This document shows, piece by piece, positions 7,701-18,968 of a stretch of 64,000 bases of DNA. The stretch covers positions 71,488 through 135,487 of the forward strand of contig JAGORG010000001.1 in assembly GCA_018062965.1 (NCBI GenBank). The letters run 5' to 3'. The notes under the pieces were generated by a model. That model was not told the DNA's origin. It worked only from the letters and a program-made list of their open reading frames with translations, and ran no database searches. A program made the position numbers and the translations under genes. The stretch is from Minisyncoccota bacterium (lineage in GTDB: Bacteria > Patescibacteriota > Minisyncoccia > Phycocordibacterales > UBA5272). How positions within the stretch are numbered: position 1 is the stretch's first letter; every line of letters starts with the position of its first letter.

Positions 7701-8188
7701 TTACCGGAATAAATTTCTCGCTGTGTAGCCATTCTATCTGCTTCGGCACTTTTGGTCCTATCAAGTGCTCTTTGTAGATTCGCCACTTGTTTTTTAAAGT
7801 GTGTATCTAGATCGTTTTTTACAATCGTCGCGATTTGAGCATTTGGAGAGTCTGGGTCTTCTGTTATAACACTGTTTAATGCTTGGTGATATGTATCAAG
7901 TGCACTTTGTGCCCGCTCGCGTCTGTATTCCGGAGAAAGGTAGGTAAAGGTCCCCGGGGTTGGTCTAATTTTGACTCCATTTTTTGTGACTTCTTCAATT
8001 CTTTTTGCTTGAGCGATTCGTTCCTCTTTGGATGCTGGCATATCCACCATCTTGGGTGTCCCGTCAACAAAAGCCTCTTTGGGTACAGTGTCCCCACGTT
8101 TTTCTGCTGCTTTAGGTAGCGGAGGATTCATAGTTCTTGTAGCCCAGTATACGTTATTTTTCAAAGGAAATGCGAGGTTTCTCCACAT
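4727..8188 (-). CDS. Large hypothetical protein (1153 aa): E/K-rich low-complexity regions, three internal ~80-aa repeats, one TM segment near residue 930, and a Cys-containing C-terminal domain
   Basis: Repeats: ILRPESRKDLPYLPDMEPGQEVLLQNADTGEVDTWTIESLENGRVHLKRI..., IQRPETAEDLPDIGVIKPGQVITLQDKESLEIAKWTVSKIENGVAFIERE..., and KVGDTISLLNKTKTAPHNWIIESISQDKDMTRVYLKSK. TM segment WGVLGTTIGTVAVTAAVMLGVFGF. Confidence 0.7.
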   Translation of the reverse strand: MWRNLAFPLKNNVYWATRTMNPPLPKAAEKRGDTVPKEAFVDGTPKMVDMPASKEERIAQAKRIEEVTKNGVKIRPTPGTFTYLSPEYRRERAQSALDTYHQALNSVITEDPDSPNAQIATIVKNDLDTHFKKQVANLQRALDRTKSAEADRMATQREIYSGKRTDSLFVGKEIKRPDIETMVTKSLSKIVEEGESEETDTVKEAKADFVSALENELTQITPVQVHTSNTSPAEKNTKDTATTPDTSLGGALVDAIEKTKAEGGDLGVIQTPTNPDLNEQGFYKKSEHILRPESRKDLPYLPDMEPGQEVLLQNADTGEVDTWTIESLENGRVHLKRIINGKEEVRTYGAGNIKDIMRLNAYYENALSPKTAEVEVVQEEPQQNTRTILRAQWRKKQNLGKGNFIKPTEHIQRPETAEDLPDIGVIKPGQVITLQDKESLEIAKWTVSKIENGVAFIEREKDGGEKEEQNLSIDSLREILKTNLYYKNALRAEEEQKTVTEPKKEPKAEEKPAQEQKEDKQGLKVGDTISLLNKTKTAPHNWIIESISQDKDMTRVYLKSKDGAHSLRLTLEEALAGIEATNEWKANPDNKKEFFSNPPVGELIKIFNENRKDRKALYELYVEWDSKYIASGLIDQMREKNGNLAVSVEQIESTKKLLQAYKKILELDGNENYIPGIRVETELEGNIVTLAKILSGKTTTKSKEDRNNIETLVSGYSAAGDAYQLERLEKAIQEAEPFTTQQNQEKQAEEPKKPEAAPEMGPDGMPSAFEAVYEKLAETQEWAQKEVDRLKKDLQELSLTHSHYAVKIIRANIIKRDLLNVVEQLHRRVEDYVSYAKTYEDFFRESANGTFAIDDDKRVKSVRFIQTLSGTQKLIDEIPAVTEQVFKAIDEHLQKPDINAIQAPPTFTYTHTKQPGGNQSPRQEPPSQKDLERAGAVANNIEQGVRKKWGVLGTTIGTVAVTAAVMLGVFGFKNKQEKEVSAAATPPVATKTAADPSKVTQWNHPEWFQNVSESKEKDIARMIGRTNSKEYLQPFIMGPKTQDKTTTNTQTYDTIFNTLALKANVPYAAYCDTERAVVPETYAQVDNVPYDFRNNLCGAIKALIKAQDSVGLGVQPELPKVEPKKDESFKEYFERVQAAITSQLQKKDSPYQV

Positions 8189-11650: not shown

Positions 11651-11725
11651 CTATACAGTATAGCAGGAGGTTTTTGTAGGTATAAAGAAACAGGAGCGAT
11701 GTCGTAGACATCGCTCCTGTTTCTT

Positions 11726-12331
11726 TTATTCTCCAGGAACTATTCCTAGGTTTTCATCCGAGTATTCTTCGACATGTGGCTGCTTTTTGCCGCTACGAAC
11801 TTTTTTGATCGGGCGACGAGTTCTGTAACCAATGAGGAATTTTTCAGGGTGGTCGCACATATCGATAAAGTCTTCACACGCTTCTCGAAGTTTTGTAGAA
11901 GATGATCTTCCAAAAGAAATAACTTCTACCTGCACACCAAAGTGCTCTTTGAGAAATGTTACAAGAGGCACAAAGTCTCCATCCCCTGTTGCCAGGATAA
12001 TGGTGTCTACTTTTGGTGCGAGACGTATTGCGTCCACCGCAAGTCCCACATCCCAATCTGCTTTCTTTGCTCCGCCATAAAAGATTTGAAGGTCTTTTGT
12101 TTTGGTTTCGATGCCGATTTTTGTAAGAGCTTCAAAGAATTGTGTTTCATCCCCCGCTTCTGTGGTGATTACATACGCAAGTGCACGAATGAGTTTTCGT
12201 GTCCCTACAGATTCCTTCATGATCGCTCCGAAGTTCACTTTTGAATTATAAAGATTTTTTGCACTGTGATACAGATTTTGTGTATCGATAAAAACTGCGA
12301 CGCGCTGGTCGTTGTGTTTGATAACTGACAT
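11726..12331 (-). CDS. NYN-domain (LabA/DUF88-like, PIN-related) protein
   Basis: VAVFIDTQNLYHSAKNL...IILATGDGDFVPLV matches the NYN/LabA nuclease-fold signature. Confidence 0.75.
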   Translation of the reverse strand: MSVIKHNDQRVAVFIDTQNLYHSAKNLYNSKVNFGAIMKESVGTRKLIRALAYVITTEAGDETQFFEALTKIGIETKTKDLQIFYGGAKKADWDVGLAVDAIRLAPKVDTIILATGDGDFVPLVTFLKEHFGVQVEVISFGRSSSTKLREACEDFIDMCDHPEKFLIGYRTRRPIKKVRSGKKQPHVEEYSDENLGIVPGE

Positions 12332-12445
12332 ATTGATAGGTGATAGGCACTAGTTTGTAGTTGATAGTGTATATACAAAAATGCAACAACTACTGCCTTT
12401 TTAAAATTAAAAAATAGAAACCTATAGTTAGTATAGCGTACTACT

Positions 12446-12480
12446 AAAGTAAAGAGCGCCTGTTGGCGCTCTTTACTGTT
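12446..12480 (-). terminator. Hairpin immediately 3' of rpsO
   Basis: gtaaagagcgcc-tgtt-ggcgctctttac inverted repeat adjacent to the rpsO stop. Weak T-run. Confidence 0.4.
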
Positions 12481-12482
12481 GA

Positions 12483-12746
12483 TTACTTGAGTCCGAGCTT
12501 TGTAACAACAGCTGTATATCGCTTCTTGTTACTTGCTGCTAGATACTTGAGGTGAGTTCTGCGGTCAGCAACCATTTGGATAAGTCCACGACGAGAGTGA
12601 TTATCCTTCTTGTGTGTCTTCAAATGGTTTGTGAGTTCTGTAATTTTCTTCGTCAAAAGAGACACCTGAACCTCAGGAGATCCAGTATCTTTTTCGTGAA
12701 TTTGAACGTTTTTGATGGCTGTTGCCTTTTTTCGTGCCGAAAGCAT
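12483..12746 (-). CDS. rpsO: 30S ribosomal protein S15
   Basis: 87 aa. TGSPEVQVSLLTKKITELTNHLKTHKKDNHSRRGL is the conserved S15 core. Confidence 0.95.
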   Translation of the reverse strand: MLSARKKATAIKNVQIHEKDTGSPEVQVSLLTKKITELTNHLKTHKKDNHSRRGLIQMVADRRTHLKYLAASNKKRYTAVVTKLGLK

Positions 12747-12860
12747 AGTAGTGCTATTGATTAACTATAAAATATATTGTATCACACATCTCCAGAAAAA
12801 GCAAGCCCTCTTTAGGTTTTATATATCAAGTAAGATCTTCCCAGGATAACCTTGTAAATA

Positions 12861-12888
12861 TTGACATATTTGTATATTATAGTATAAT
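12861..12888 (+). promoter_or_regulatory. Consensus sigma70-type promoter (TTGACA-16 nt-TATAAT) for the HTH/GHKL gene pair, followed by CTAG-type palindromes
   Basis: TTGACA at 12861-12866 and TATAAT at 12883-12888. Downstream inverted repeats TCTAGTTTTTACTAGA and TTCTAGAA lie before the ATG at 12968. Confidence 0.55.
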
Positions 12889-12967
12889 GCAAACTAGGAT
12901 CTAGTTTTTACTAGAACTGGGTTTCTGTACATTTACAACCTCATTGTTCTAGAAAGGACAATACATC

Positions 12968-13705
12968 ATGAGTTCAGTAAAGATCACTGGTCCGTTTGTG
13001 GACATTTTGAAGCAGTTTTCACTGGAACATCGCCTTGGTCACGGGGAAGCTGGCAATAGCGAGCGTCTCGCGGTCTTGTGTAATGTGTTGGACGCTCCGC
13101 GCTCAACAGTTGAAAACTGGTTCAAAAACGACATCACACCCACCTCTGGAAATATGCGCAAAGTTGAACTAATGCTCTCTTTGTGTGGGTATGAATCAGA
13201 AGAACGAAGAAGTTTTTCCCCGATGATTCGCCTCTTTGTTGACACACTTACCACTACGGTTTCTATTGAAGAAGCCGCCCAACAGTTGGGTGGCACTTCG
13301 GAGAATATCAAGAACTGGGTTCGCGGCACAAGTCAACCCAAAAATGTGCAAGACATCATTGCTTTCAACGACTTGCATACCAGTCAACGTGTCGCCAAAG
13401 TCAAAGAGTGGCGTCGTTGTCTTGAGGATGGTGGCTTTATTGTTGCGGTATCGAAAACCGAAGAAGTAGTTTTGGTAAAAGCAACTTCGGTTCCTGGTGA
13501 GAACGAGAAAGTCGACATGCAACAAATTGATCAAGCGATTGCTCACCAAGCGAAAGCCTTGCTTTCGATGATTCGTTCCTCTGACGTTCTTGCGAACGGC
13601 GCGAGAAAAAAAACCATCCGCCAAGCTGTCGGTTACGACGACTTGGCAAAGCTTGTTGGGGATCTTCAACGGATCTCTATGGCAGACTTCAACTTTACAA
13701 ACTGA
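12968..13705 (+). CDS. Hypothetical protein with two HTH-like segments, the upstream partner of the GHKL ATPase
   Basis: Segments LAVLCNVLDAPRSTVENWFKNDITPTSGNMRKVELML and AAQQLGGTSENIKNWVRGTSQPKNVQDII resemble XRE-type HTH (my reading, not profile-verified). GC is elevated compared with flanking genes. Confidence 0.55.
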   Translation: MSSVKITGPFVDILKQFSLEHRLGHGEAGNSERLAVLCNVLDAPRSTVENWFKNDITPTSGNMRKVELMLSLCGYESEERRSFSPMIRLFVDTLTTTVSIEEAAQQLGGTSENIKNWVRGTSQPKNVQDIIAFNDLHTSQRVAKVKEWRRCLEDGGFIVAVSKTEEVVLVKATSVPGENEKVDMQQIDQAIAHQAKALLSMIRSSDVLANGARKKTIRQAVGYDDLAKLVGDLQRISMADFNFTN

Positions 13706-13716
13706 GGAGAATAGTA

Positions 13717-15375
13717 ATGAACCAAAAGCGACAACAAGTTACATCAGCTGTACTCCGTCCCCATCGTATGGGGTTGGTGTTCAAATCTGTTGCGGATACG
13801 TACCCAACCCTCCGACTCAGCATTCAGGAGCTTATTCAGAACTCTATTGACGTTGACGCCAAAAACATCGAAGTCATCATTAACGCGCAAGGCAACTTCG
13901 TGGTTGTGCATGACAACGGTTCTGGTGCAACGAAGAATGACTTCAATCAAGCACTGCAGTCTGTCCTCAAGTCAAGCAAAGACAAAGACAAGTTCGGCCG
14001 CTTTGGTCGTGGTACCATCTCCCCACTTACAAAGTGCAGGGAGTTTACCTTTATGTCACGCGGCAGGACGGGCCCCTCCCACAGATGGACGTTCCATTGC
14101 AAGGAGATTCTGGAGTCAGAAGACTTTCCTCAGATCCCTTGCGAAGACGTTGGTTCTGGGGGTGGTCAGTGGTGGCGTACGGAAGTACAGCTCAAAGGGG
14201 TCAAGTTTTCTGAAGACGCCGTAAAATACGCGGTTAACCTTGAGGAACTAAAGAATGCCGTTCTGGCAAGCTTTGCGACCCGCATGCGCAAGCTGGGAAC
14301 TGTCGTCAGAATGGCTTATCAACCCGCAAGCGGTAAAGTGCAGGAGCTAACATTTTCTGCCAAGTCCTACGGCGGTGAGAAGCTTCCTGTATGGGTGTCA
14401 GAAGACGAAACGCCCGCTGGGAAAGTCTGCATCAGTCTTTATCTGAACACGAAAGGAACTTCGCCTATACCGATTACTATCGGGCAAACGAGTGATCCTT
14501 TCCGGGTGGACTGGAAAACCTTCTACGCTTCGGTTAACTCGTTTGCAAAACAAAACAAGCGGGTGACCTTCGATACAAGCGGTAAAGAGATCAACGACCT
14601 TTTCAGGTCCGGTCTGCTTACTGGTGAAATTGAGTGTGAGAACATCACGATTCATCCTGAACGTGAGAAGTTCGAGCGCAATGAAGCACTCGACTACTTC
14701 GTGATGATCCTCGAAGAGTGGTTTCAGAAAGTTGGTAAAGATATCTACGCACAAGCGCAGATTCGAGCAAAATCAACCCTGTACCAGGAAGCGGCGCTCG
14801 AAGCAACTAGACGCATCGAAAACCACCCGCTTGTGGCTGAGTTCCTCAAGATGGTGAAGTTTGGTACTGTTGGCAAGGGACACGCTTCGGTGAACGCAAA
14901 GCCGGTCGGTGAAGTTACTTCTTCGTCGGTCAACCTTGGTCGCGATCAAGGTAAAGGCACAAGTGTTCCTGAGGAAGGTTCTACGGTCAACGGTCCGAAC
15001 GATAAGGTCACACGGCCGGGCCAAGTCCCTCTTGTGGTCGACGGACCTGAAGGTTCCAAGCGTACGATTGTGCGCGGGGAAAGCAAAGGGCTGCGTATCG
15101 CTATCGAACCTTTCCCAGGGTTTGGTGGAGTTGAAGCGCCGCTCTTTAAGATGCAGGTGGAAGCTGGGCTTGTAATCATTAACCAGCTTGCTCCTTCCTT
15201 CAACTCTTGTGCAGACCGAGGCAAAAGCCCTTTGCATCGTTACATCGACATGGTCATTGTGGCTGCCCTGCAGTCGACGGTTGCTATGGACCCCACAAGG
15301 GTTCAGAGTGATCTCGAGCAGTACATCCGCTATACCAATACCGCTTTTTTGCGGGGTGACCAGAGAGAACTGTAA
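13717..15375 (+). CDS. GHKL-superfamily ATPase, MORC/HATPase_c_3-like (Bergerat fold) with a large C-terminal region of unknown function
   Basis: N box ELIQNSIDVDAKNIEV, G1 box VVHDNGSGATKNDF and G2 box GRFGRGTIS occur in the canonical order. About 55-58% GC in sampled 60-nt windows against about 40% in nearby host genes. Confidence 0.7.
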   Translation: MNQKRQQVTSAVLRPHRMGLVFKSVADTYPTLRLSIQELIQNSIDVDAKNIEVIINAQGNFVVVHDNGSGATKNDFNQALQSVLKSSKDKDKFGRFGRGTISPLTKCREFTFMSRGRTGPSHRWTFHCKEILESEDFPQIPCEDVGSGGGQWWRTEVQLKGVKFSEDAVKYAVNLEELKNAVLASFATRMRKLGTVVRMAYQPASGKVQELTFSAKSYGGEKLPVWVSEDETPAGKVCISLYLNTKGTSPIPITIGQTSDPFRVDWKTFYASVNSFAKQNKRVTFDTSGKEINDLFRSGLLTGEIECENITIHPEREKFERNEALDYFVMILEEWFQKVGKDIYAQAQIRAKSTLYQEAALEATRRIENHPLVAEFLKMVKFGTVGKGHASVNAKPVGEVTSSSVNLGRDQGKGTSVPEEGSTVNGPNDKVTRPGQVPLVVDGPEGSKRTIVRGESKGLRIAIEPFPGFGGVEAPLFKMQVEAGLVIINQLAPSFNSCADRGKSPLHRYIDMVIVAALQSTVAMDPTRVQSDLEQYIRYTNTAFLRGDQREL

Positions 15376-15399
15376 TCGGCGCAATGCCAGTTACCAACA

Positions 15400-15430
15400 A
15401 AACGCCAGTGCAATGCTGGCGTTTTTTTTA
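15400..15430 (+). terminator. Intrinsic terminator after the GHKL ATPase gene
   Basis: cgccagtgcaatgctggcg hairpin followed by an 8-T run. Confidence 0.7.
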
Positions 15431-15479
15431 TTTTCTACCCACACAGTATTGTGCGACATTCGTAGTACACTTTATAGTA

Positions 15480-16424
15480 ATGAACAGTCTCGGCAGTTTA
15501 AAAGCAGATTTTCTCCAATATATCGAAATCGAAAAGGGTCGCAGTGCGCTCACTGTGCGAAATTATGACCACTATCTAACGCGTTTCCTTGAATTTGTAC
15601 AAGTAGAGTCCCCTGCTGATGTAACTGAAAGCATGATGCGCGAATATCGTGTTTATTTGAACCGACATCCGGCACGCGCTGCAAAAAAAGGTCAACCAGT
15701 GGAAACACTCGATAAAAAAACACAAAACTATCACTTGATTGCTCTTCGTGCGTTTCTCAAATATATTCGTAGACGAGGTGTGCAAGGATATGACCCTGAA
15801 CGCATTGAGCTTGCAAAAACAAGTGCACGAGAGCTTGATCTCATTTCTGAAAAAGAACTCACAAACCTACTAAACGCACCAGATACGAGTACAATCGTTG
15901 GTTTGCGTGACAAGGCAATACTTGAGCTCTTTTTCTCAACCGGGCTTCGTGTGTCTGAGCTGTGCTCACTTGATAGGGATACTGACTTCCACACAAGCGA
16001 AATCTCTGTTCGTGGAAAAGGTGGCAAAATCCGTGTTGTGTTTATTTCAGAAGCAGCAGCACAAGCGGTAAAAAAATATCTACAAGCCCGTGTTGATATC
16101 GATGAAGCGATGTTTGTAGACCACTCCCCTCGTGCAGCGGCTCGCATGGTAAAAGAAGAGTCTATTCGCCTAACACCGCGTTCTATTGAGCGTATGGTAG
16201 AAAAATGTGCGACGCTCGCTGGTATTTCTAAAAAATGCACTCCGCATGTGATACGACACTCGTTTGCGACAGATCTTTTGTACAATGGTGCAGACTTGCG
16301 TACGGTGCAGATGATGCTTGGGCATGCGTCCATTGCAACGACTCAGATTTATACGAATGTGACCAACAAGTTTTTGCGCGACCAATTTGAAAAATTTCAC
16401 TCAAAGCGAGGTGCAAAGGAGTAA
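15480..16424 (+). CDS. xerD: Tyrosine site-specific recombinase (XerC/XerD-like integrase family)
   Basis: C-terminal catalytic signature HVIRHSFATDLLYNGADLRTVQMMLGHASIATTQIYTNV (R..H..R..Y). N-terminal core-binding-like region. Start placed at MNSLGSLKADF (in frame with the 15384 ORF). Confidence 0.82.
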   Translation: MNSLGSLKADFLQYIEIEKGRSALTVRNYDHYLTRFLEFVQVESPADVTESMMREYRVYLNRHPARAAKKGQPVETLDKKTQNYHLIALRAFLKYIRRRGVQGYDPERIELAKTSARELDLISEKELTNLLNAPDTSTIVGLRDKAILELFFSTGLRVSELCSLDRDTDFHTSEISVRGKGGKIRVVFISEAAAQAVKKYLQARVDIDEAMFVDHSPRAAARMVKEESIRLTPRSIERMVEKCATLAGISKKCTPHVIRHSFATDLLYNGADLRTVQMMLGHASIATTQIYTNVTNKFLRDQFEKFHSKRGAKE

Positions 16425-16536
16425 GTTGCTGATTTTTCTTGTGGTGATAGTATACGATTACGCCCGCTTTCTTTTCCGTGCTACAAGGTATAGTAGAAGG
16501 CTATGCAGTACAAACGTTTTTATGCGGAACTGTTAA

Positions 16537-16953
16537 GTGTGGCGTCCATATACACAAAGGAGATTATCTATGGATACTTCATGGTCTCACACCGTGGAAC
16601 AAATGGATGCTCTCCGTGACATTGGTCTGAAGCATCTTGATATCGTTAAAGTGTGGTCGATGTTGCCGGGGTTTGAAGAGCGGTTTGCTCTCCGGGGTAA
16701 AACTCGTCTCATGGCATTGTGTCGATTCCACAATGAAAAGACACCATCACTTCGTATTTGGCCAAAGAGTCGACGCTTTATGTGTCATGGGTGCCAGGAG
16801 ACGGGCGATGCGCTTTATCTGCTTAAAGTTTTTGAGAAATGTTGCATTGATTCAGAAGAGCTGAGACATCTTTCTCCTCTACGTCGCCAAGAAGAAGTCA
16901 TGTTCTTTAAAAATACACTTGAGAAATATCTCAGGCGTCGCATTTTTCTCTAA
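16537..16953 (+). CDS. Stand-alone CHC2 zinc-finger protein (DnaG primase N-terminal zinc-binding domain-like). Start may be the downstream Met at 16570.
   Basis: ALCRFHNEKTPSLRIWPKSRRFMCHGCQETGDALYLL matches the CPFH-EKTPSF...C-GCG zinc-finger pattern of primase N-termini. Confidence 0.6.
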   Translation: MWRPYTQRRLSMDTSWSHTVEQMDALRDIGLKHLDIVKVWSMLPGFEERFALRGKTRLMALCRFHNEKTPSLRIWPKSRRFMCHGCQETGDALYLLKVFEKCCIDSEELRHLSPLRRQEEVMFFKNTLEKYLRRRIFL

Positions 16954-16976
16954 AAGCCCATACGGGCTTTTTTTTA
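16953..16976 (+). terminator. Intrinsic terminator
   Basis: aagcccatacgggctt hairpin plus a T-run. Confidence 0.65.
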
Positions 16977-17024
16977 TTTGAAACAGATTGAAGTAGTATT
17001 GACACATGTAACATATGTATGTAG

Positions 17025-17040
17025 TGTACTAGCTAGTACA
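17025..17040. promoter_or_regulatory. Perfect 16-bp palindrome TGTACTAGCTAGTACA overlapping the putative -10 of the 17067 gene (operator-like)
   Basis: TTGACA at 16999-17004, 17-nt spacer, TAGTGT, then the palindrome. The ACTAGGA motif is shared with the 12890-12905 region. Confidence 0.45.
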
Positions 17041-17066
17041 AGTTCTTATTTACTAGGAGTTTTTCC

Positions 17067-17468
17067 ATGAACATGACCGCCACCCCCACTGAAGACGAAC
17101 TTACTCTTGTTGCAGCAAAGTTTTTCAACATGGTCACGCTGCTATTCCTTTTGGGTAAAACACCAGAAGAAATCAAGGAAATGTGTGAACACTACTTTGA
17201 TCTTGTTATGAAGCATGCTGACACAGCAAAAGTGCATGTGTTTGTTGATGAAGCAGGGCGTCAACTTAAAGAAGTGTACGTCTCTTTCTCAGATGAACAG
17301 ATGAATGCGGTCAAGGAGTCGCTTGAGTCGTTTAGCCAAAGGCACCCAAACATTCTCGCGCAAGGTGACGCCTTTTTAACAACGAGCTTTGCTCAGTTTA
17401 ACGAGGCCTATCAGTCGTCTTCAGTGCTTATTCAGTGGGTTGATCTACCAGACTTTTCTGGAATCTGA
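17067..17468 (+). CDS. Hypothetical protein
   Basis: 133-aa ORF with the promoter/operator above and an SD-like aggag before the ATG. Confidence 0.5.
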   Translation: MNMTATPTEDELTLVAAKFFNMVTLLFLLGKTPEEIKEMCEHYFDLVMKHADTAKVHVFVDEAGRQLKEVYVSFSDEQMNAVKESLESFSQRHPNILAQGDAFLTTSFAQFNEAYQSSSVLIQWVDLPDFSGI

Positions 17469-17531
17469 TACCATCTGATTTTCCAAAAAGCGTACCCATG
17501 TGCGCTTTTTTATTTTGCTATACTAAGGTGT

Positions 17532-18296
17532 ATGAAACTCATTTCTTGGAATGTAAACGGTATACGCGCAGCACATAAAAAAGGTGCGCTTGATGAGTTG
17601 TTTAAACTGAAAGCCGACATAATCGGTATTCAAGAAACGAAATGTACGCCGGACCAACTGACAGAAGCAGTCACGTCTCCAGCGGGGTATATGTCTTATT
17701 TTGATTCTGCAAAAGAGCGCAAAGGGTACTCTGGTGTTGCGGTGTACACAAAAGTGCAACCAGAAAAAGTAGAGTACGGGCTCGGAGATGATGAGTACGA
17801 CACAGAAGGTAGATGCCTCACGTTACACTTCAAAGACTTTGCATTTGTTACCTGTTATTTTCCAAACGGTGGGCGTGATGCAGAACACTTCAAGTACAAG
17901 ATTCGTTACTATGAAAAGTTTTTGGCACATGTGAAACAGCTCGAAGAAGAATATGGGAAAGTTATTTTTTGCGGGGACTTAAACGTTGCTCACAACGAAA
18001 TAGACCTTGCTCGTCCAAAAGAAAACGCCAACTCAATCGGGTTCCTCCCTGTTGAGCGTGCATGGGTTGATCGTGTTCAAGAATCTGGATTTATCGATAC
18101 GTTTCGTGCACTTCACCCTGAAACTGTCAGGTACAGTTGGTGGGATCAAAAGACAAGTTCCCGAGAGAGAAACGTTGGATGGAGAATTGATTATTTTTTT
18201 GTTAATGAAGCTCTGTTTGGAGATATTAAAAAGGCAGATATCTTGACGGATGTATATGGGAGTGATCATGCACCAGTGCTGCTTGAAATGAAATAA
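17532..18296 (+). CDS. xth: Exodeoxyribonuclease III (AP endonuclease)
   Basis: MKLISWNVNGIRA...IQETK...GDLNVAH...GSDHAP are the Xth/EEP family motifs. Confidence 0.9.
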   Translation: MKLISWNVNGIRAAHKKGALDELFKLKADIIGIQETKCTPDQLTEAVTSPAGYMSYFDSAKERKGYSGVAVYTKVQPEKVEYGLGDDEYDTEGRCLTLHFKDFAFVTCYFPNGGRDAEHFKYKIRYYEKFLAHVKQLEEEYGKVIFCGDLNVAHNEIDLARPKENANSIGFLPVERAWVDRVQESGFIDTFRALHPETVRYSWWDQKTSSRERNVGWRIDYFFVNEALFGDIKKADILTDVYGSDHAPVLLEMK

Positions 18297-18332
18297 AGAA
18301 AACGAGAGGCCGTAGGCCTCTCGTTTTCTTTA
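18297..18332. terminator. Bidirectional intrinsic terminator
   Basis: aaaacgagaggcc-gta-ggcctctcgtttt with flanking A/T runs. Confidence 0.7.
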
Positions 18333-18347
18333 TTTGTATAGGGCTTT

Positions 18348-18968
18348 CTATCGTGAAAATAGTGCTCGCAGGCTTTCAAAGTGAGCTTTGATTGCTTCTC
18401 GTAAACCTGTTGGTGGAGCAACTGGCTCTGGCTGTTTTTCTGCAACCATAGCTCGCATCATAGTTGCTTGTGCTGGCTGTGCAAGTTCTTTTTCTGCGGG
18501 TGCTGCAACTGATTCTGCATTCATCACGCTTCGTTTTTCTGAAACAGTGTTGATTTCAGTCTGAACTTGAACATCTCGCACTGTCTCTCGACATGCTTTA
18601 GTATCTGCTTCAAATGTGTCCCATGCATTTTTTCTATACTTAGTTAGAGCATCTTGGGCGTTTTTTGTTAGTGTTCTGTATTCATCAGCTGCTTCTTTCT
18701 TTGCATCATCTTGTTCATCGATATCTACGATACTCAGTGCAGCTTTTACGGCTTCCTTGCGAACATCAAGAGCTACCTTCATGGCTTCGTTGTATTCTGT
18801 GCGTGCAACACCGATTGCTGTATCACGCTTTTCTACCGCTGCCTGTTGGCATGTGGTGAAGGTTGATTGTGGGGGTGCAACAACGACAGACGTCGTGCTT
18901 GTTTGCGCGCCTGCAAATGTAGGAACAAGGAGTGCGCTTAGGAGGGTGAGTGTAAATACGGTTTTCAT
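18348..18968 (-). CDS. Secreted hypothetical protein (signal peptide)
   Basis: MKTVFTLTLLSALLVPTFAGAQT signal peptide. Mostly alpha-helical, charged. Confidence 0.6.
   Translation of the reverse strand: MKTVFTLTLLSALLVPTFAGAQTSTTSVVVAPPQSTFTTCQQAAVEKRDTAIGVARTEYNEAMKVALDVRKEAVKAALSIVDIDEQDDAKKEAADEYRTLTKNAQDALTKYRKNAWDTFEADTKACRETVRDVQVQTEINTVSEKRSVMNAESVAAPAEKELAQPAQATMMRAMVAEKQPEPVAPPTGLREAIKAHFESLRALFSR

What the first reader, a model, noticed from the sequence alone, without database searches (positions are those of the whole stretch)
12780..17470. Compositional island with recombinase and primase-type zinc-finger genes: candidate integrated element between rpsO and xth
Reading rightward from rpsO: a strong promoter, the HTH/GHKL pair, a terminator, a XerC/D-like tyrosine recombinase and a stand-alone CHC2 primase-type zinc-finger protein. 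The zinc-finger gene runs about 48% GC. A terminator and a hypothetical gene with its own operator-bearing promoter follow. Recombinase plus primase-domain protein plus cargo is the typical make-up of small integrative elements. The recombinase itself has host-like GC (about 38%), so it could alternatively be the chromosomal XerD, with the cargo inserted next to it.
Basis: inference. Interest (0 to 1): 0.7.

Follow-up and report, generated by a model that had tools for sequence, protein, structure and literature searches.

The report
Variable gene cassette beside chromosomal Xer
Some strains of this tiny-genome (CPR/Paceibacteria) bacterium carry, and others lack, a 2.6-kb GC-rich two-gene cassette (a DNA-binding protein plus a MutL/MORC-like ATPase) in a gene-swapping hot spot next to the cell's own conserved Xer recombinase; it is not a recombinase-plus-primase mobile element.

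Summary
The GC-rich island is the HTH/GHKL pair (46.9% and 50.9% GC, against 43.3% for the window). The zinc-finger gene (44.4%) and the recombinase (44.2%, not 38%) are ordinary.

Near-identical metagenome contigs give an empty site. There, rpsO sits directly beside the same recombinase-ZnF-h131-xth block, so the variable piece is about 12811-15438. It has its own consensus promoter and terminator and no flanking direct repeats. A third allele carries a different 425-aa gene.

The recombinase is a full-length Xer-type enzyme. It sits between rpsO and xth in about 80 species, so it is a chromosomal gene and not an element integrase. The zinc-finger protein has only the zinc ribbon and stays in place in the empty-site strains.

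The rpsO-xer gap varies from 76 bp to 4.7 kb across species. It can hold CRISPR-Cas V-F, IS110, RNase HII or ORFans, so it is an accessory-gene hot spot.

The cargo belongs to a conserved, uncharacterised two-gene family: an HTH partner of about 250 aa plus a GHKL ATPase of about 550 aa. A defence or conflict role is inferred, not shown.

Verdict: a real but fairly ordinary strain-variable cassette. The integrated-element reading is refuted.

The parts
12483..12746 (-). rpsO (ribosomal protein S15). Conserved left flank, not part of the variable unit.
   Evidence: Pfam Ribosomal_S15, 2e-31. Present next to xer in nearly all of about 80 species.
12747..12810 (.). Conserved rpsO upstream region. 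On the minus strand it reads as a promoter (TTGCTT-17-TGATACAAT). This is the last stretch shared with the empty-site contigs.
   Evidence: 100% identical to L006 and L007 up to 12810. The promoter reading is my own inspection of the sequence.
12811..15438 (+). Strain-variable cassette of about 2628 bp; the right edge is fuzzy by about 15 bp. It contains a promoter/operator, two genes and a terminator. In empty-site strains about 27-34 unrelated bp stand in its place. In others a 425-aa gene replaces it.
   Evidence: blastn against L006, L008 and L014 (empty) and L010, L015 and L016 (alternative cargo). No flanking direct repeats. GC maximum of the window.
12861..12888 (+). Cassette promoter TTGACA-16-TATAAT, a 12/12 match to consensus.
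   Evidence: TATTGACA and the -10 box are conserved in the orthologous cassettes of L018, L022 and L148.
12892..12954 (+). 5' leader with CTAG-type palindromes (AACTAG-GAT-CTAGTT at 12892-12906; TTCTAGAA at 12947-12954). Candidate operators for the HTH partner.
   Evidence: Read directly from the sequence. The TTGTTCTAGAAAGGACAAT block is conserved in L022. Operator function is inferred.
12968..13705 (+). p245, the HTH-type partner protein of the GHKL ATPase.
   Evidence: No Pfam hit of its own. AF2 model is all-helical with two HTH-like repeats, pLDDT 60. It belongs to one family with the ORFs upstream of 19 other GHKL homologues. Some family members hit Pfam HTH_3 at 9e-7.
13717..15375 (+). 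GHKL552, a MutL/MORC/SMCHD1-like GHKL ATPase: ATPase domain, transducer-like domain, a disordered linker (381-457) and a C-terminal domain.
15399..15425 (+). Intrinsic terminator of the cassette (11-12-bp stem plus a T8 run). It is shared with the alternative 425-aa cassette and with the orthologous cassettes.
   Evidence: Unique in the window. RNAalifold gives an 11-pair stem in which one pair is kept through a change on both sides, C-G to U-A.
15446..15459 (+). Conserved xer-linked 14-mer, GTATTGTGCGACAT (consensus ATATTGTGCGACAT). It lies directly right of the cassette boundary. Function unknown.
   Evidence: Single copy per locus, always at the xer start, in about 80 species. Its orientation is flipped in the more distant group.
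15480..16424 (+). Chromosomal Xer-type tyrosine recombinase, 314 aa. Not part of the variable unit.
   Evidence: XerD and XerC profiles 236 bits over the full length; XerA_Arch 227 bits, above its cutoff of 220. Best PDB relatives are XerA, XerA and XerD. Motifs GLR155, K-rich GKGGK179, H256xxR259, H282 and Y291 are present. Retained in the empty-site contig L006. Syntenic in about 80 species.
16570..16953 (+). Stand-alone CHC2 zinc-ribbon protein, 127 aa from ATG 16570 or 116 aa from ATG 16603. Lineage-specific content of the xer-xth gap, not linked to the cassette.
   Evidence: Zn_ribbon_DnaG, 6e-12, with no TOPRIM or primase domain. Present in the empty-site strain L006 and absent from L018 and L022. 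A 35%-identical counterpart is seen only in L044. GC 44.4%.
17067..17468 (+). h131/133, a hypothetical protein with its own promoter (TTGACA at 16999-17004) and a 14-bp palindrome, GTACTAGCTAGTAC, at 17026-17039. Fast-evolving and lineage-specific.
   Evidence: No family hit. 89-91% amino-acid identity between strains whose neighbouring genes are 98-100% identical. 150-bp deletion in L016. Sequence read.
17532..18296 (+). xth (exodeoxyribonuclease III). Conserved right anchor of the xer neighbourhood.
   Evidence: Exo_endo_phos, 7.5e-31. Syntenic in most of the 80 species.

Best explanation
The locus is a conserved chromosomal xer gene with a variable gap on each side. It is not an integrase-borne island.

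The compositional island is a self-contained accessory operon of about 2.6 kb (about 12811-15438). It has its own consensus sigma-70 promoter with CTAG palindromes, an HTH-type partner gene (p245), a MutL/MORC/SMCHD1-like GHKL ATPase gene (GHKL552), and an intrinsic terminator. It occupies the divergent intergenic gap between rpsO and xer.

That gap is an accessory-gene hot spot in Paceibacteria-type CPR genomes. Conspecific strains carry it empty, with this pair, or with an unrelated 425-aa gene. Other species carry CRISPR-Cas V-F, IS110, RNase HII, ORFans, or a very distant version of the same two-gene pair.

Inferred steps:
- Alleles are exchanged or lost by ordinary homologous recombination through the unusually conserved flanks (rpsO and xer), plus illegitimate deletion or replacement. 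Xer-catalysed site-specific integration is not required.
- The pair works as one unit. The HTH protein binds DNA, probably including its own operator. The GHKL protein acts as an ATP-driven dimerising clamp or switch.
- The most likely role is a conflict or defence module against phage or foreign DNA. I put that at about 0.35-0.4. The structural part of this explanation I put at about 0.9.

The CHC2 zinc-ribbon gene and h131 are separate, lineage-specific genes of the xer-xth gap.
For: Shown by tool results:
- Empty site: L006, L008 and L014 are 98% identical up to 12810 and align again (89-98%) from 15439. The xer, ZnF, h131 and xth genes are all retained.
- A third allele carries a 425-aa gene and shares only the last 42 bp, including the terminator.
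- Metagenome contigs break at the cassette edges: L001, L003, L011, L012 and L013.
- No boundary direct repeats.
- Xer identity.
- Synteny ComM-h206-NYN-rpsO | xer ... xth ... PGK-TIM holds in about 80 species. The rpsO-xer gap is 76-4673 bp and the xer-xth gap is 10-5833 bp.
- Contents of the rpsO-xer gap: RNase HII, IS110, Cas12f-like plus Cas1 plus two CRISPR arrays, an iron permease, and many ORFans.
- Recombination breakpoint: between the window and L007, rpsO plus cassette are 98.9-99.7% identical in nucleotides. Identity then drops to 94.6% in xer and 92-96% further right.
- Independent acquisition: L080 has a Xer 82-86% identical to the window group, but its pair is only 28-31% identical. 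L111-L113 carry a 28-31% pair in the same gap in the opposite orientation.
- The pair is a conserved module. In about 19 of 23 loci the GHKL gene is directly preceded on the same strand by a 221-294-aa ORF. All 20 such partners fall into one family, and some of them have HTH hits.
- GHKL motifs are intact, and the fold is MutL/MORC/SMCHD1-like.
- The pair also sits among housekeeping genes with no recombinase nearby in L024, L105 and L107.
Against: - No function has been tested. PADLOC gives only domain-level hits (MzaB 19 bits, TmtA 17 bits). No nuclease or other effector domain is recognisable. No homologue was found on phage, plasmid or IMG/VR records.
- The polarity of the polymorphism (gain or loss) is not resolved. 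Orthologous pairs at 57-72% identity sit at the same locus in five lineages (window, L022, L018, L148, L149). That is also compatible with old vertical residence plus repeated loss.
- Across four lineages (window, L018, L022, L148) the pair's GC stays about 3-10 points above its host's and rises with it. Simple recent import does not explain this.
- The right boundary abuts a strongly conserved xer-linked 14-mer, so a role for Xer in the rearrangements cannot be excluded.
- All comparators are metagenome contigs or MAGs. Individual contigs could be chimeric, although several independent samples agree.
Confidence: 0.75

Rival explanations
1. The whole stretch 12780-17470 is one small integrative element: the tyrosine recombinase is its integrase, the CHC2 zinc-finger protein is its primase or replication function, and the HTH/GHKL pair plus h131 are its cargo.
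For: The gene combination looks superficially like integrase-plus-primase islands. The pair is compositionally foreign.
Against: - The recombinase, ZnF and h131 remain in strains without the pair (L006).
- The recombinase is syntenic in about 80 species and is Xer-like over its full length.
- ZnF is absent from L018, L022 and L148, which do carry the pair.
- ZnF has no TOPRIM or primase domain.
- There are no att repeats.
- ZnF and xer have host-like GC.
Confidence: 0.03
2. An IMEX-like capture platform dependent on Xer. The conserved 14-mer beside xer is part of a dif-like or att-like site, and the neighbouring chromosomal Xer inserts and removes circular cassettes there. That would explain why unrelated cargos, including two deeply diverged versions of the same pair, land in the same gap.
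For: - The right boundary of the cassette and the nucleotide-identity break both fall within about 20 bp of the 14-mer.
- The 14-mer is single-copy, xer-linked and conserved down to 55% Xer identity.
- Insertions recur in the same gap in both orientations.
- In L149 the pair lies just on the other side of the 14-mer.
- From my own knowledge: single-recombinase systems such as XerS/difSL keep the site next to the gene.
Against: - No second, even degenerate, copy of the motif is found systematically at the far end of the inserts.
- The conserved core is only about 14-15 bp, with no recognisable two-arm, 28-bp architecture.
- There is no match to the bacterial dif consensus anywhere in the window.
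- The occupied and empty alleles differ by replacement of about 27-34 bp, not by a clean insertion.
- In the distant group the motif simply forms the first codons of xer.
- The same pair family sits at non-xer loci elsewhere.
Confidence: 0.1
3. The pair is an old resident of this clade with a cellular job such as chromatin or repair regulation. It was inherited vertically at the rpsO-xer locus and simply deleted in some strains. On this view it is neither mobile nor defensive.
For: - Five lineages with 57-72% identical GHKL genes share the locus, and that divergence lies within the range of host genes: PGK 54-59%, Xer 82-88%.
- The pair's GC rises with the host's, from a 43% to a 55% background.
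- The L008 empty site keeps about 35 bp resembling the left end of the L010 allele, which looks like a deletion scar.
- MutL/MORC/SMCHD1-type ATPases do have cellular DNA roles (for the fold; the roles are from my own knowledge).
Against: - None of the 80 species representatives scanned carries a close copy (more than 50% identical) of the window's pair; only L080 does, at 28%. Species with equally similar Xer (L025, 88%) have a minimal 124-bp gap.
- L080 and L111 carry xenologous (28-31%) versions in the same gap.
- Strains that are about 98-99% identical in the left flank (nucleotide level) and 98-100% identical in flanking proteins differ in presence or absence, and by replacement with an unrelated gene.
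- The cassette is 99.5-99.7% identical between strains whose xer gene is 94.6% identical.
Confidence: 0.2
4. An integron-like system, in which xer acts as an integron integrase and the rpsO-xer gap is its cassette array.
For: Cassettes lie next to a tyrosine recombinase gene. Two different cassettes share a 3' hairpin. The NCBIfam model named 'XerA/integron integrase' is passed.
Against: - The integron-integrase profiles score 115 and 74 bits against cutoffs of 265 and 435.
- The cassettes carry their own promoters.
- The shared hairpin is an ordinary terminator with a T-run. Other species have unrelated terminators at that place, so there is no attC-like family.
- Only one to a few genes are present, with no repeated recombination sites.
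Confidence: 0.02

Closest known systems
Chromosomal Xer recombinases (XerC/XerD; single-recombinase XerA, XerS, XerH)
   Same: Full-length match to the XerD, XerC and XerA profiles. Best solved relatives are XerA (4a8e, 5hxy) and XerD (1a0p). The catalytic R-K-HxxR-H-Y signature is present. The gene is in a conserved position across about 80 species.
   Different: It scores below the XerC and XerD equivalog cutoffs (236 against about 330 bits). No cognate dif site was identified. A conserved 14-mer of unknown role sits at its start.
Core-genome integration hot spots and defence islands (variable accessory genes between conserved core genes, exchanged through homologous flanks)
   Same: The flanks are conserved while the content between them is highly variable, among strains and among species. 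The content includes a CRISPR-Cas system and IS elements. There is a recombination breakpoint at the cassette edge and no element-encoded integrase.
   Different: The hot spot is very small, usually one to four genes. It lies in a divergent promoter region directly beside xer in streamlined CPR genomes. The same two-gene family has landed there at least twice.
IMEX elements (integrative mobile elements exploiting Xer, such as CTX-phi, TLC and the gonococcal genetic island)
   Same: The cargo has no recombinase of its own, and a host Xer gene sits immediately beside the insertion point.
   Different: No dif or dif-like duplicate flanks the insert. The alleles differ by replacement, not clean insertion. 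No phage or plasmid relatives were found.
MutL/MORC/SMCHD1-type GHKL ATPases, including prokaryotic MORC-like conflict-system ATPases (Iyer, Abhiman and Aravind 2008, PMC2292703; cited from the reference list read, paper not read here) and the defence proteins MzaB and TmtA (Tiamat)
   Different: Only domain-level sequence similarity: MzaB 19-27 bits against a cutoff of 850, and TmtA 17 bits. It has a different obligatory partner, an HTH protein of about 250 aa. Its C-terminal domain is zincin-like in fold but lacks HExxH. No nuclease, methylase or helicase partner is present.
   Same: A tyrosine recombinase gene, a DnaG-type zinc-ribbon gene and odd cargo lie next to each other.
   Different: The recombinase and zinc-ribbon genes do not co-vary with the cargo. 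There are no att repeats and no primase catalytic domain. The recombinase is a conserved chromosomal gene.
Integrons
   Same: Gene cassettes lie adjacent to a tyrosine recombinase gene.
   Different: The integron-integrase thresholds are failed. There is no attC family. The cassettes carry their own promoters.

Membership tests
Self-encoded integrative element (genomic island, IME or prophage-like) | The integrase gene belongs to the variable segment, so it is absent from the empty site. | tested here: not met
   The empty-site contig L006 (also L008 and L014) keeps the recombinase gene (93.8% nucleotide, 98% amino-acid identity to the window's), followed in L006 by ZnF, h131 and xth.
Self-encoded integrative element (genomic island, IME or prophage-like) | Direct repeats (attL/attR) at the boundaries. 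| tested here: not met
   The repeat finder on 12600-15700 gives no boundary repeat. In the empty alleles about 27-34 unrelated bp stand in place of the insert.
Self-encoded integrative element (genomic island, IME or prophage-like) | The replication or primase gene co-varies with the integrase and cargo. | tested here: not met
   ZnF is present without the cargo in L006. ZnF is absent from the xer-xth gap of the cargo-bearing L018 and L022. It is missing from 79 of the 80 species.
DnaG-type primase | CHC2 zinc ribbon together with a TOPRIM catalytic core. | tested here: not met
   Only Zn_ribbon_DnaG is found, at residues 56-101 of a protein of 116-138 aa. The dnaG profile matches positions 33-76 of 414 only.
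Chromosomal Xer recombinase | Full-length similarity to Xer profiles and structures, with the catalytic R-K-HxxR-H-Y residues. | tested here: met
   XerD and XerC profiles 236 bits over positions 2-289/290 (below the equivalog cutoffs). XerA_Arch 227 bits, above its cutoff of 220. PDB relatives XerA and XerD at E 1e-39 to 1e-32. Motifs located.
Chromosomal Xer recombinase | Conserved syntenic position across species, independent of neighbouring cargo. | tested here: met
   80 loci from different GTDB species have rpsO | xer ... xth synteny and Xer identity of 55-88%. No second copy in the 64-kb window. Whole genomes were not searched.
Chromosomal Xer recombinase | A cognate dif site, and chromosome-dimer resolution at the terminus. 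| tested here: inconclusive
   The bacterial dif consensus is absent from the window at up to 3 mismatches. The window covers only 64 kb, and the dif of CPR bacteria is unknown. The activity cannot be tested here.
IMEX (element exploiting host Xer) | The insert lies at dif and is flanked by dif or dif-like sites. | tested here: not met
   A single copy of the xer-linked 14-mer per locus, with no systematic second copy at the distal ends of the inserts.
Integron | An IntI-type integrase above the family threshold. | tested here: not met
   TIGR02249 scores 115.6 against 265, and NF011946 scores 74.4 against 435.
Integron | Promoterless cassettes, each ending in an attC site. | tested here: not met
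   Both cassette types carry TTGACA-type promoters. The sequences upstream of the 14-mer in other species are unrelated terminators.
GHKL ATPase (MutL/MORC/SMCHD1 branch) | Bergerat ATP-binding motifs I-III. | tested here: met
   E38, N42 and D45, then D66-x-G68-x-G70, then G94/F96/G99 are invariant in the 7-sequence alignment. HATPase_c_3 at 53 bits, above its cutoff of 25.
GHKL ATPase (MutL/MORC/SMCHD1 branch) | A transducer (ribosomal-S5-like) domain following the ATPase domain. | tested here: met
   [not shown]
Known defence proteins MzaB and TmtA (Tiamat) | A whole-protein match to the family model. | tested here: not met
   PADLOC gives MzaB 19.1 bits and TmtA 17.6 bits, covering the N-terminal ATP lid only. 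NCBIfam MzaB scores 26.6 against a cutoff of 850.
Accessory-gene or defence hot spot between core genes | Different, unrelated gene content at the same core-gene junction, in strains and in species. | tested here: met
   Three to four alleles exist among conspecific contigs. The gap is 76-4673 bp across species, and its ORFs are mostly singleton clusters.
Accessory-gene or defence hot spot between core genes | Bona fide defence or mobile genes occur in the same slot. | tested here: met
   L045 has a Cas12f-like protein (1e-123), Cas1 and two CRISPR arrays. L036 and L037 have an IS110 transposase.
Anti-phage defence system (for the HTH+GHKL pair) | Protection against phage or foreign DNA on expression. 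| not testable with these tools
   Context only: a variable hot spot, a two-gene module and a GHKL ATPase. No recognised effector domain.

The most novel reading that the evidence does not exclude
The rpsO-xer gap could be a Xer-serviced capture site, marked by the conserved 14-mer ATATTGTGCGACAT, at which streamlined CPR bacteria acquire and swap small defence cassettes. That would be a new IMEX- or integron-like platform. On the same reading, the HTH plus GHKL pair, with 392 cluster representatives at E<1e-30, would be a new two-gene anti-phage or anti-plasmid system typical of Patescibacteria.
Probability: 0.1. Interest if true: 0.7.

Novelty: new member of a known kind. Interest (0 to 1): 0.35.

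Why it matters
For annotation, a tyrosine recombinase next to odd-composition genes is not enough to call a mobile element. Here the recombinase is the housekeeping Xer and only two genes are variable.

For CPR/Patescibacteria biology, these bacteria have tiny genomes and rarely carry CRISPR-Cas (abstract of PMC6509639, listed). It is therefore useful to know where their few accessory or defence genes are kept. The rpsO-xer gap is a recurrent slot across about 80 species and holds CRISPR-Cas V-F in one of them.

The HTH plus GHKL pair is a conserved, uncharacterised module. It is a reasonable candidate for functional testing as a defence or DNA-handling system.

The xer-linked 14-mer, with its orientation flip, is an unexplained cis element that may bear on how Xer is regulated or where it acts in these genomes.

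Tried and rejected
- Boundary direct or inverted repeats: none meaningful.
- Bacterial dif consensus in the window: no match.
- A second copy of the xer-linked 14-mer at the far ends of inserts: hits at up to 3 mismatches total 229 against 150 in shuffled sequence, and none is systematically at a distal boundary.
- DnaA-box clustering, to test an oriC idea raised by the GC-skew sign change near 8-10 kb: 18 hits against 15.5 expected, with no cluster at the locus.
- Rfam scan of 12000-18500: nothing near a gathering score.
- attC-like reading of the shared 3' hairpin: it is a normal terminator, and other species have unrelated terminators there.
- CapK/CapS-type kinase-repressor pair (PMC13373217): rejected. 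CapK is an HTH-STAS-SpoIIAB-like kinase and CapS is a STAS-wHTH protein, and no STAS domain was detected in either protein here.
- GHKL-Shedu (VcSduA, PMC12137116): rejected. There is no DUF4263 hit, and no invariant D, E or K in the C-terminal domain.
- tblastn of the GHKL protein against plasmid and phage records and IMG/VR: no hits.
- The word-index homologue search for ZnF found only near-identical proteins.
- The afdb50 fold library was unavailable.
- The first structure job failed and was rerun.
- The p245 model is too weak (pLDDT 60) for a fold search, so none was run.

Full report
**Observation**

The ORF map and domain scans confirm the gene list:
- rpsO, 12483-12746 (-).
- A 245-aa protein, 12968-13705.
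- A 552-aa HATPase_c_3 (GHKL) protein, 13717-15375.
- A tyrosine recombinase, 15480-16424. Gene callers on identical contigs use the 314-aa start.
- A CHC2 zinc-ribbon protein, 16570/16603-16953.
- A 131/133-aa hypothetical, 17067-17468.
- xth, 17532-18296.

These are a 12/12 consensus promoter at 12861-12888 and terminators at 15399-15425, 16952-16971 and 17485-17510. A TTGACA box plus a perfect 14-bp palindrome lies upstream of the last gene.

The composition figures are wrong. The window is 43.3% GC, the zinc-finger gene 44.4% and the recombinase 44.2%. The anomaly is the 245-aa/GHKL pair, at 46.9% and 50.9% GC with GC3 of 0.48 and 0.55. The GHKL gene is the most GC-rich 1659-bp stretch of the whole window.

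**Empty site and boundaries**

Exact-protein look-ups returned contigs from a dozen samples of the same species. Their titles name 'Candidatus Pacebacteria' MAGs.

L006, and the shorter contigs L008 and L014, are 98% identical to the window up to 12810 and align again (89-98%) from 15439. L006 carries rpsO directly beside xer-ZnF-h131-xth. The variable segment is therefore about 12811-15438: promoter, two genes and terminator.

L010, L015 and L016 carry a different gene there, 425 aa with no family hit. It has its own promoter and shares only the last 42 bp, including the terminator.

There are no boundary repeats. In the empty alleles about 27-34 unrelated bp stand in place of the insert, so the alleles differ by replacement rather than clean insertion.

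Several assemblies break exactly at the cassette edges. One sample, ERZ3602260, holds junctions of two alleles.

Between the window and L007, rpsO plus cassette are 98.9-99.7% identical in nucleotides. Identity then drops sharply to 94.6% in xer and 92-96% further right. That is a recombination breakpoint at the cassette/xer junction.

**The recombinase is the chromosomal Xer**

- It matches the XerD and XerC profiles end to end (236 bits) and passes the XerA model (227 against a cutoff of 220). The integron-integrase models fail.
- Its best solved relatives are XerA and XerD.
- The catalytic residues are present.
- A scan of one genome per species returned 80 loci with Xer identity of 55-88%. 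Nearly all have the order ComM-h206-NYN-rpsO | xer ... xth ... sigma-PGK-TIM.

**Two variable gaps**

The rpsO-xer gap ranges from 76 bp to 4.7 kb, with a minimum of about 124 bp in many species. The xer-xth gap ranges from 10 bp to 5.8 kb.

The xer-xth gap mostly holds ordinary genes: Hfq, uppS, DHODH, CTP synthase and an M50 peptidase. A stand-alone CHC2 zinc-ribbon gene occurs there only in the window's species and, at 35% identity, in L044.

The rpsO-xer gap holds very diverse, mostly orphan genes. Recognisable contents include:
- RNase HII.
- An IS110 transposase.
- An iron permease.
- In L045, a compact type V-F CRISPR-Cas locus: a Cas12f-like protein at 1e-123, Cas1 and two inverted arrays.

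It therefore behaves as an accessory and defence hot spot.

**The cargo**

The GHKL protein has only 7 relatives by word-index search. A full HMM scan of 1.84 billion cluster representatives finds 392 at E<1e-30, the best 150 of them mostly 520-630 aa.

- ATP-binding motifs I-III are invariant.
- Sequence similarity to MutL, sacsin, MORC2 and Topo VI-B is confined to the ATP lid. PADLOC and NCBIfam give only domain-level hits to MzaB and TmtA.

In about 19 of 23 loci with enough upstream sequence, the GHKL gene is immediately preceded on the same strand by a 221-294-aa ORF, often overlapping it. All 20 such partners, including p245, form one family.

The partner family has an N-terminal HTH region, a variable linker and a conserved C-terminal motif, R..LR..G....L.rLCSE.A. 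Some members hit Pfam HTH_3. The p245 model is all-helical with two HTH-like repeats.

The pair is therefore a conserved two-gene module. It also occurs among housekeeping genes with no recombinase nearby (L024, L105, L107). No relative was found in phage, plasmid or IMG/VR records.

**History at this locus**

Orthologous pairs at 57-72% GHKL identity sit at the same locus in four other lineages: L022, L018, L148 and L149. In the first three the terminator is conserved with one compensatory pair change. In the window, L018, L022 and L148 the pair's GC stays about 3-10 points above its host's; L149 shows little offset.

None of the 80 species representatives carries a close copy (more than 50% identical) of the pair. 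Species with equally similar Xer have a minimal gap.

L080 has a Xer 82-86% identical to the window group, yet its pair in the same gap is only 28-31% identical. L111-L113 carry another 28-31% version between xer and rpsO in the opposite orientation.

At least two independent acquisitions into the same gap are therefore required. Within the window's own clade, vertical descent with loss and repeated exchange cannot be separated with these data.

**Mechanism**

Shown:
- The cassette is a self-contained operon.
- It is polymorphic within the species.
- The recombinase is not part of it.
- The gap is a hot spot.
- Recombination breakpoints coincide with the cassette edge.

Inferred:
- Exchange goes by homologous recombination through the highly conserved rpsO and xer flanks, plus illegitimate deletion.
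- The HTH partner binds the CTAG palindromes in the leader.
- The GHKL protein is an ATP-dependent dimerising clamp or switch.
- The module serves in defence or genome conflict. I put that at about 0.35-0.4.

**The main rival that remains open**

A strongly conserved 14-mer, ATATTGTGCGACAT, lies immediately right of the cassette boundary at 15446-15459. It is single-copy and xer-linked in essentially all 80 species.

- Where Xer identity is 78% or more, it lies upstream of xer in the + orientation, followed by a TATACT box.
- Where Xer identity is 71% or less, it is reverse-complemented and forms the first codons ATG TCG CAC AAT AT.

It could be part of a Xer target or a regulatory site. Against an IMEX-like mechanism, no second copy flanks the inserts, there is no dif-like two-arm architecture, there is no dif consensus in the window, and the junctions are not clean. 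I give this reading about 0.1.

**Verdict**

The finding is a real, well-delimited, strain-variable cassette in a conserved hot spot beside the chromosomal xer. The integrase-plus-primase element interpretation is refuted.

Novelty is modest: a new member of known kinds, namely a core-genome hot spot and an uncharacterised GHKL two-gene family. Two loose ends are worth a specialist's look: the xer-linked 14-mer, and the persistent GC offset of the pair.

Noticed in passing
window 15446-15459; also L025-L104, about 8-150 bp upstream of, or at, the xer start: The 14-mer ATATTGTGCGACAT is single-copy and always tied to xer in about 80 species. It lies in the + orientation upstream of a TATACT box when Xer identity is 78% or more. 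It is reverse-complemented, forming the first codons (MSHNI), when Xer identity is 71% or less. A TTATCCCCA-like box often lies 3-5 nt upstream. Function unknown.
   Followed up: partly
L018:5990-6045 compared with L019:6470-6540; L055, about 7950-8000: Short tandem repeats sit in the xer 5' leader, with copy-number differences between near-identical contigs: (GAATAAC) x4 against x6, and (TTAGCCA)n in L055. GTTAGGAG-type repeats occur in L030 and L073. These may be phase-variable leaders.
   Followed up: no
L045:4238-8000: The rpsO-xer gap of this species holds a compact type V-F CRISPR-Cas locus: a 409-aa Cas12f-like protein (PADLOC Cas12_x1, 1e-123), Cas1, and two inverted CRISPR arrays (repeat about 40 nt, period about 71).
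   Followed up: yes
L010:1389-2666 (-); also L015 and L016: The alternative cargo at the same site in conspecific strains is a 425-aa protein with no hit in Pfam, NCBIfam, PHROGs or PADLOC. It has its own promoter and shares the window cassette's terminator. Sample ERZ3602260 contains junctions of both alleles.
   Followed up: partly
window 16570-17468; L016, around 1952: ZnF and h131 are the fastest-evolving genes of the neighbourhood among strains, at 89-94% amino-acid identity against 98-100% for their neighbours. h131 carries a 150-bp in-frame-sized deletion in L016.
   Followed up: partly
window 12968-15375; L018, L022, L148: The pair's GC and GC3 stay above the host background in four lineages whose backgrounds range from 43% to 55% GC (for example L022: host 50%, GHKL 60%, GC3 0.78). 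This is not so in L149. The cause is unexplained; biased gene conversion at a recombination hot spot is one idea.
   Followed up: partly
window, about 1-22000: GC skew changes sign near 8-10 kb and gene orientation diverges at rpsO|xer, which hints at a replication-related switch nearby. There is no DnaA-box cluster (18 hits against 15.5 expected).
   Followed up: partly
[not shown]
   Followed up: no
window 18291-18335 and 11684-11726: About 45-bp near-perfect palindromes, seen as self reverse-complement BLAST hits. The first lies between the convergent genes xth and h206b; the second ends at the stop of the NYN gene, in the NYN-h206 gap. Probably terminator-type hairpins.
   Followed up: no
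L036:5285-6760 and L037:5476-6948: IS110-family transposase genes (490-491 aa) sit inside the rpsO-xer gap of two species, together with several small ORFans.
   Followed up: no
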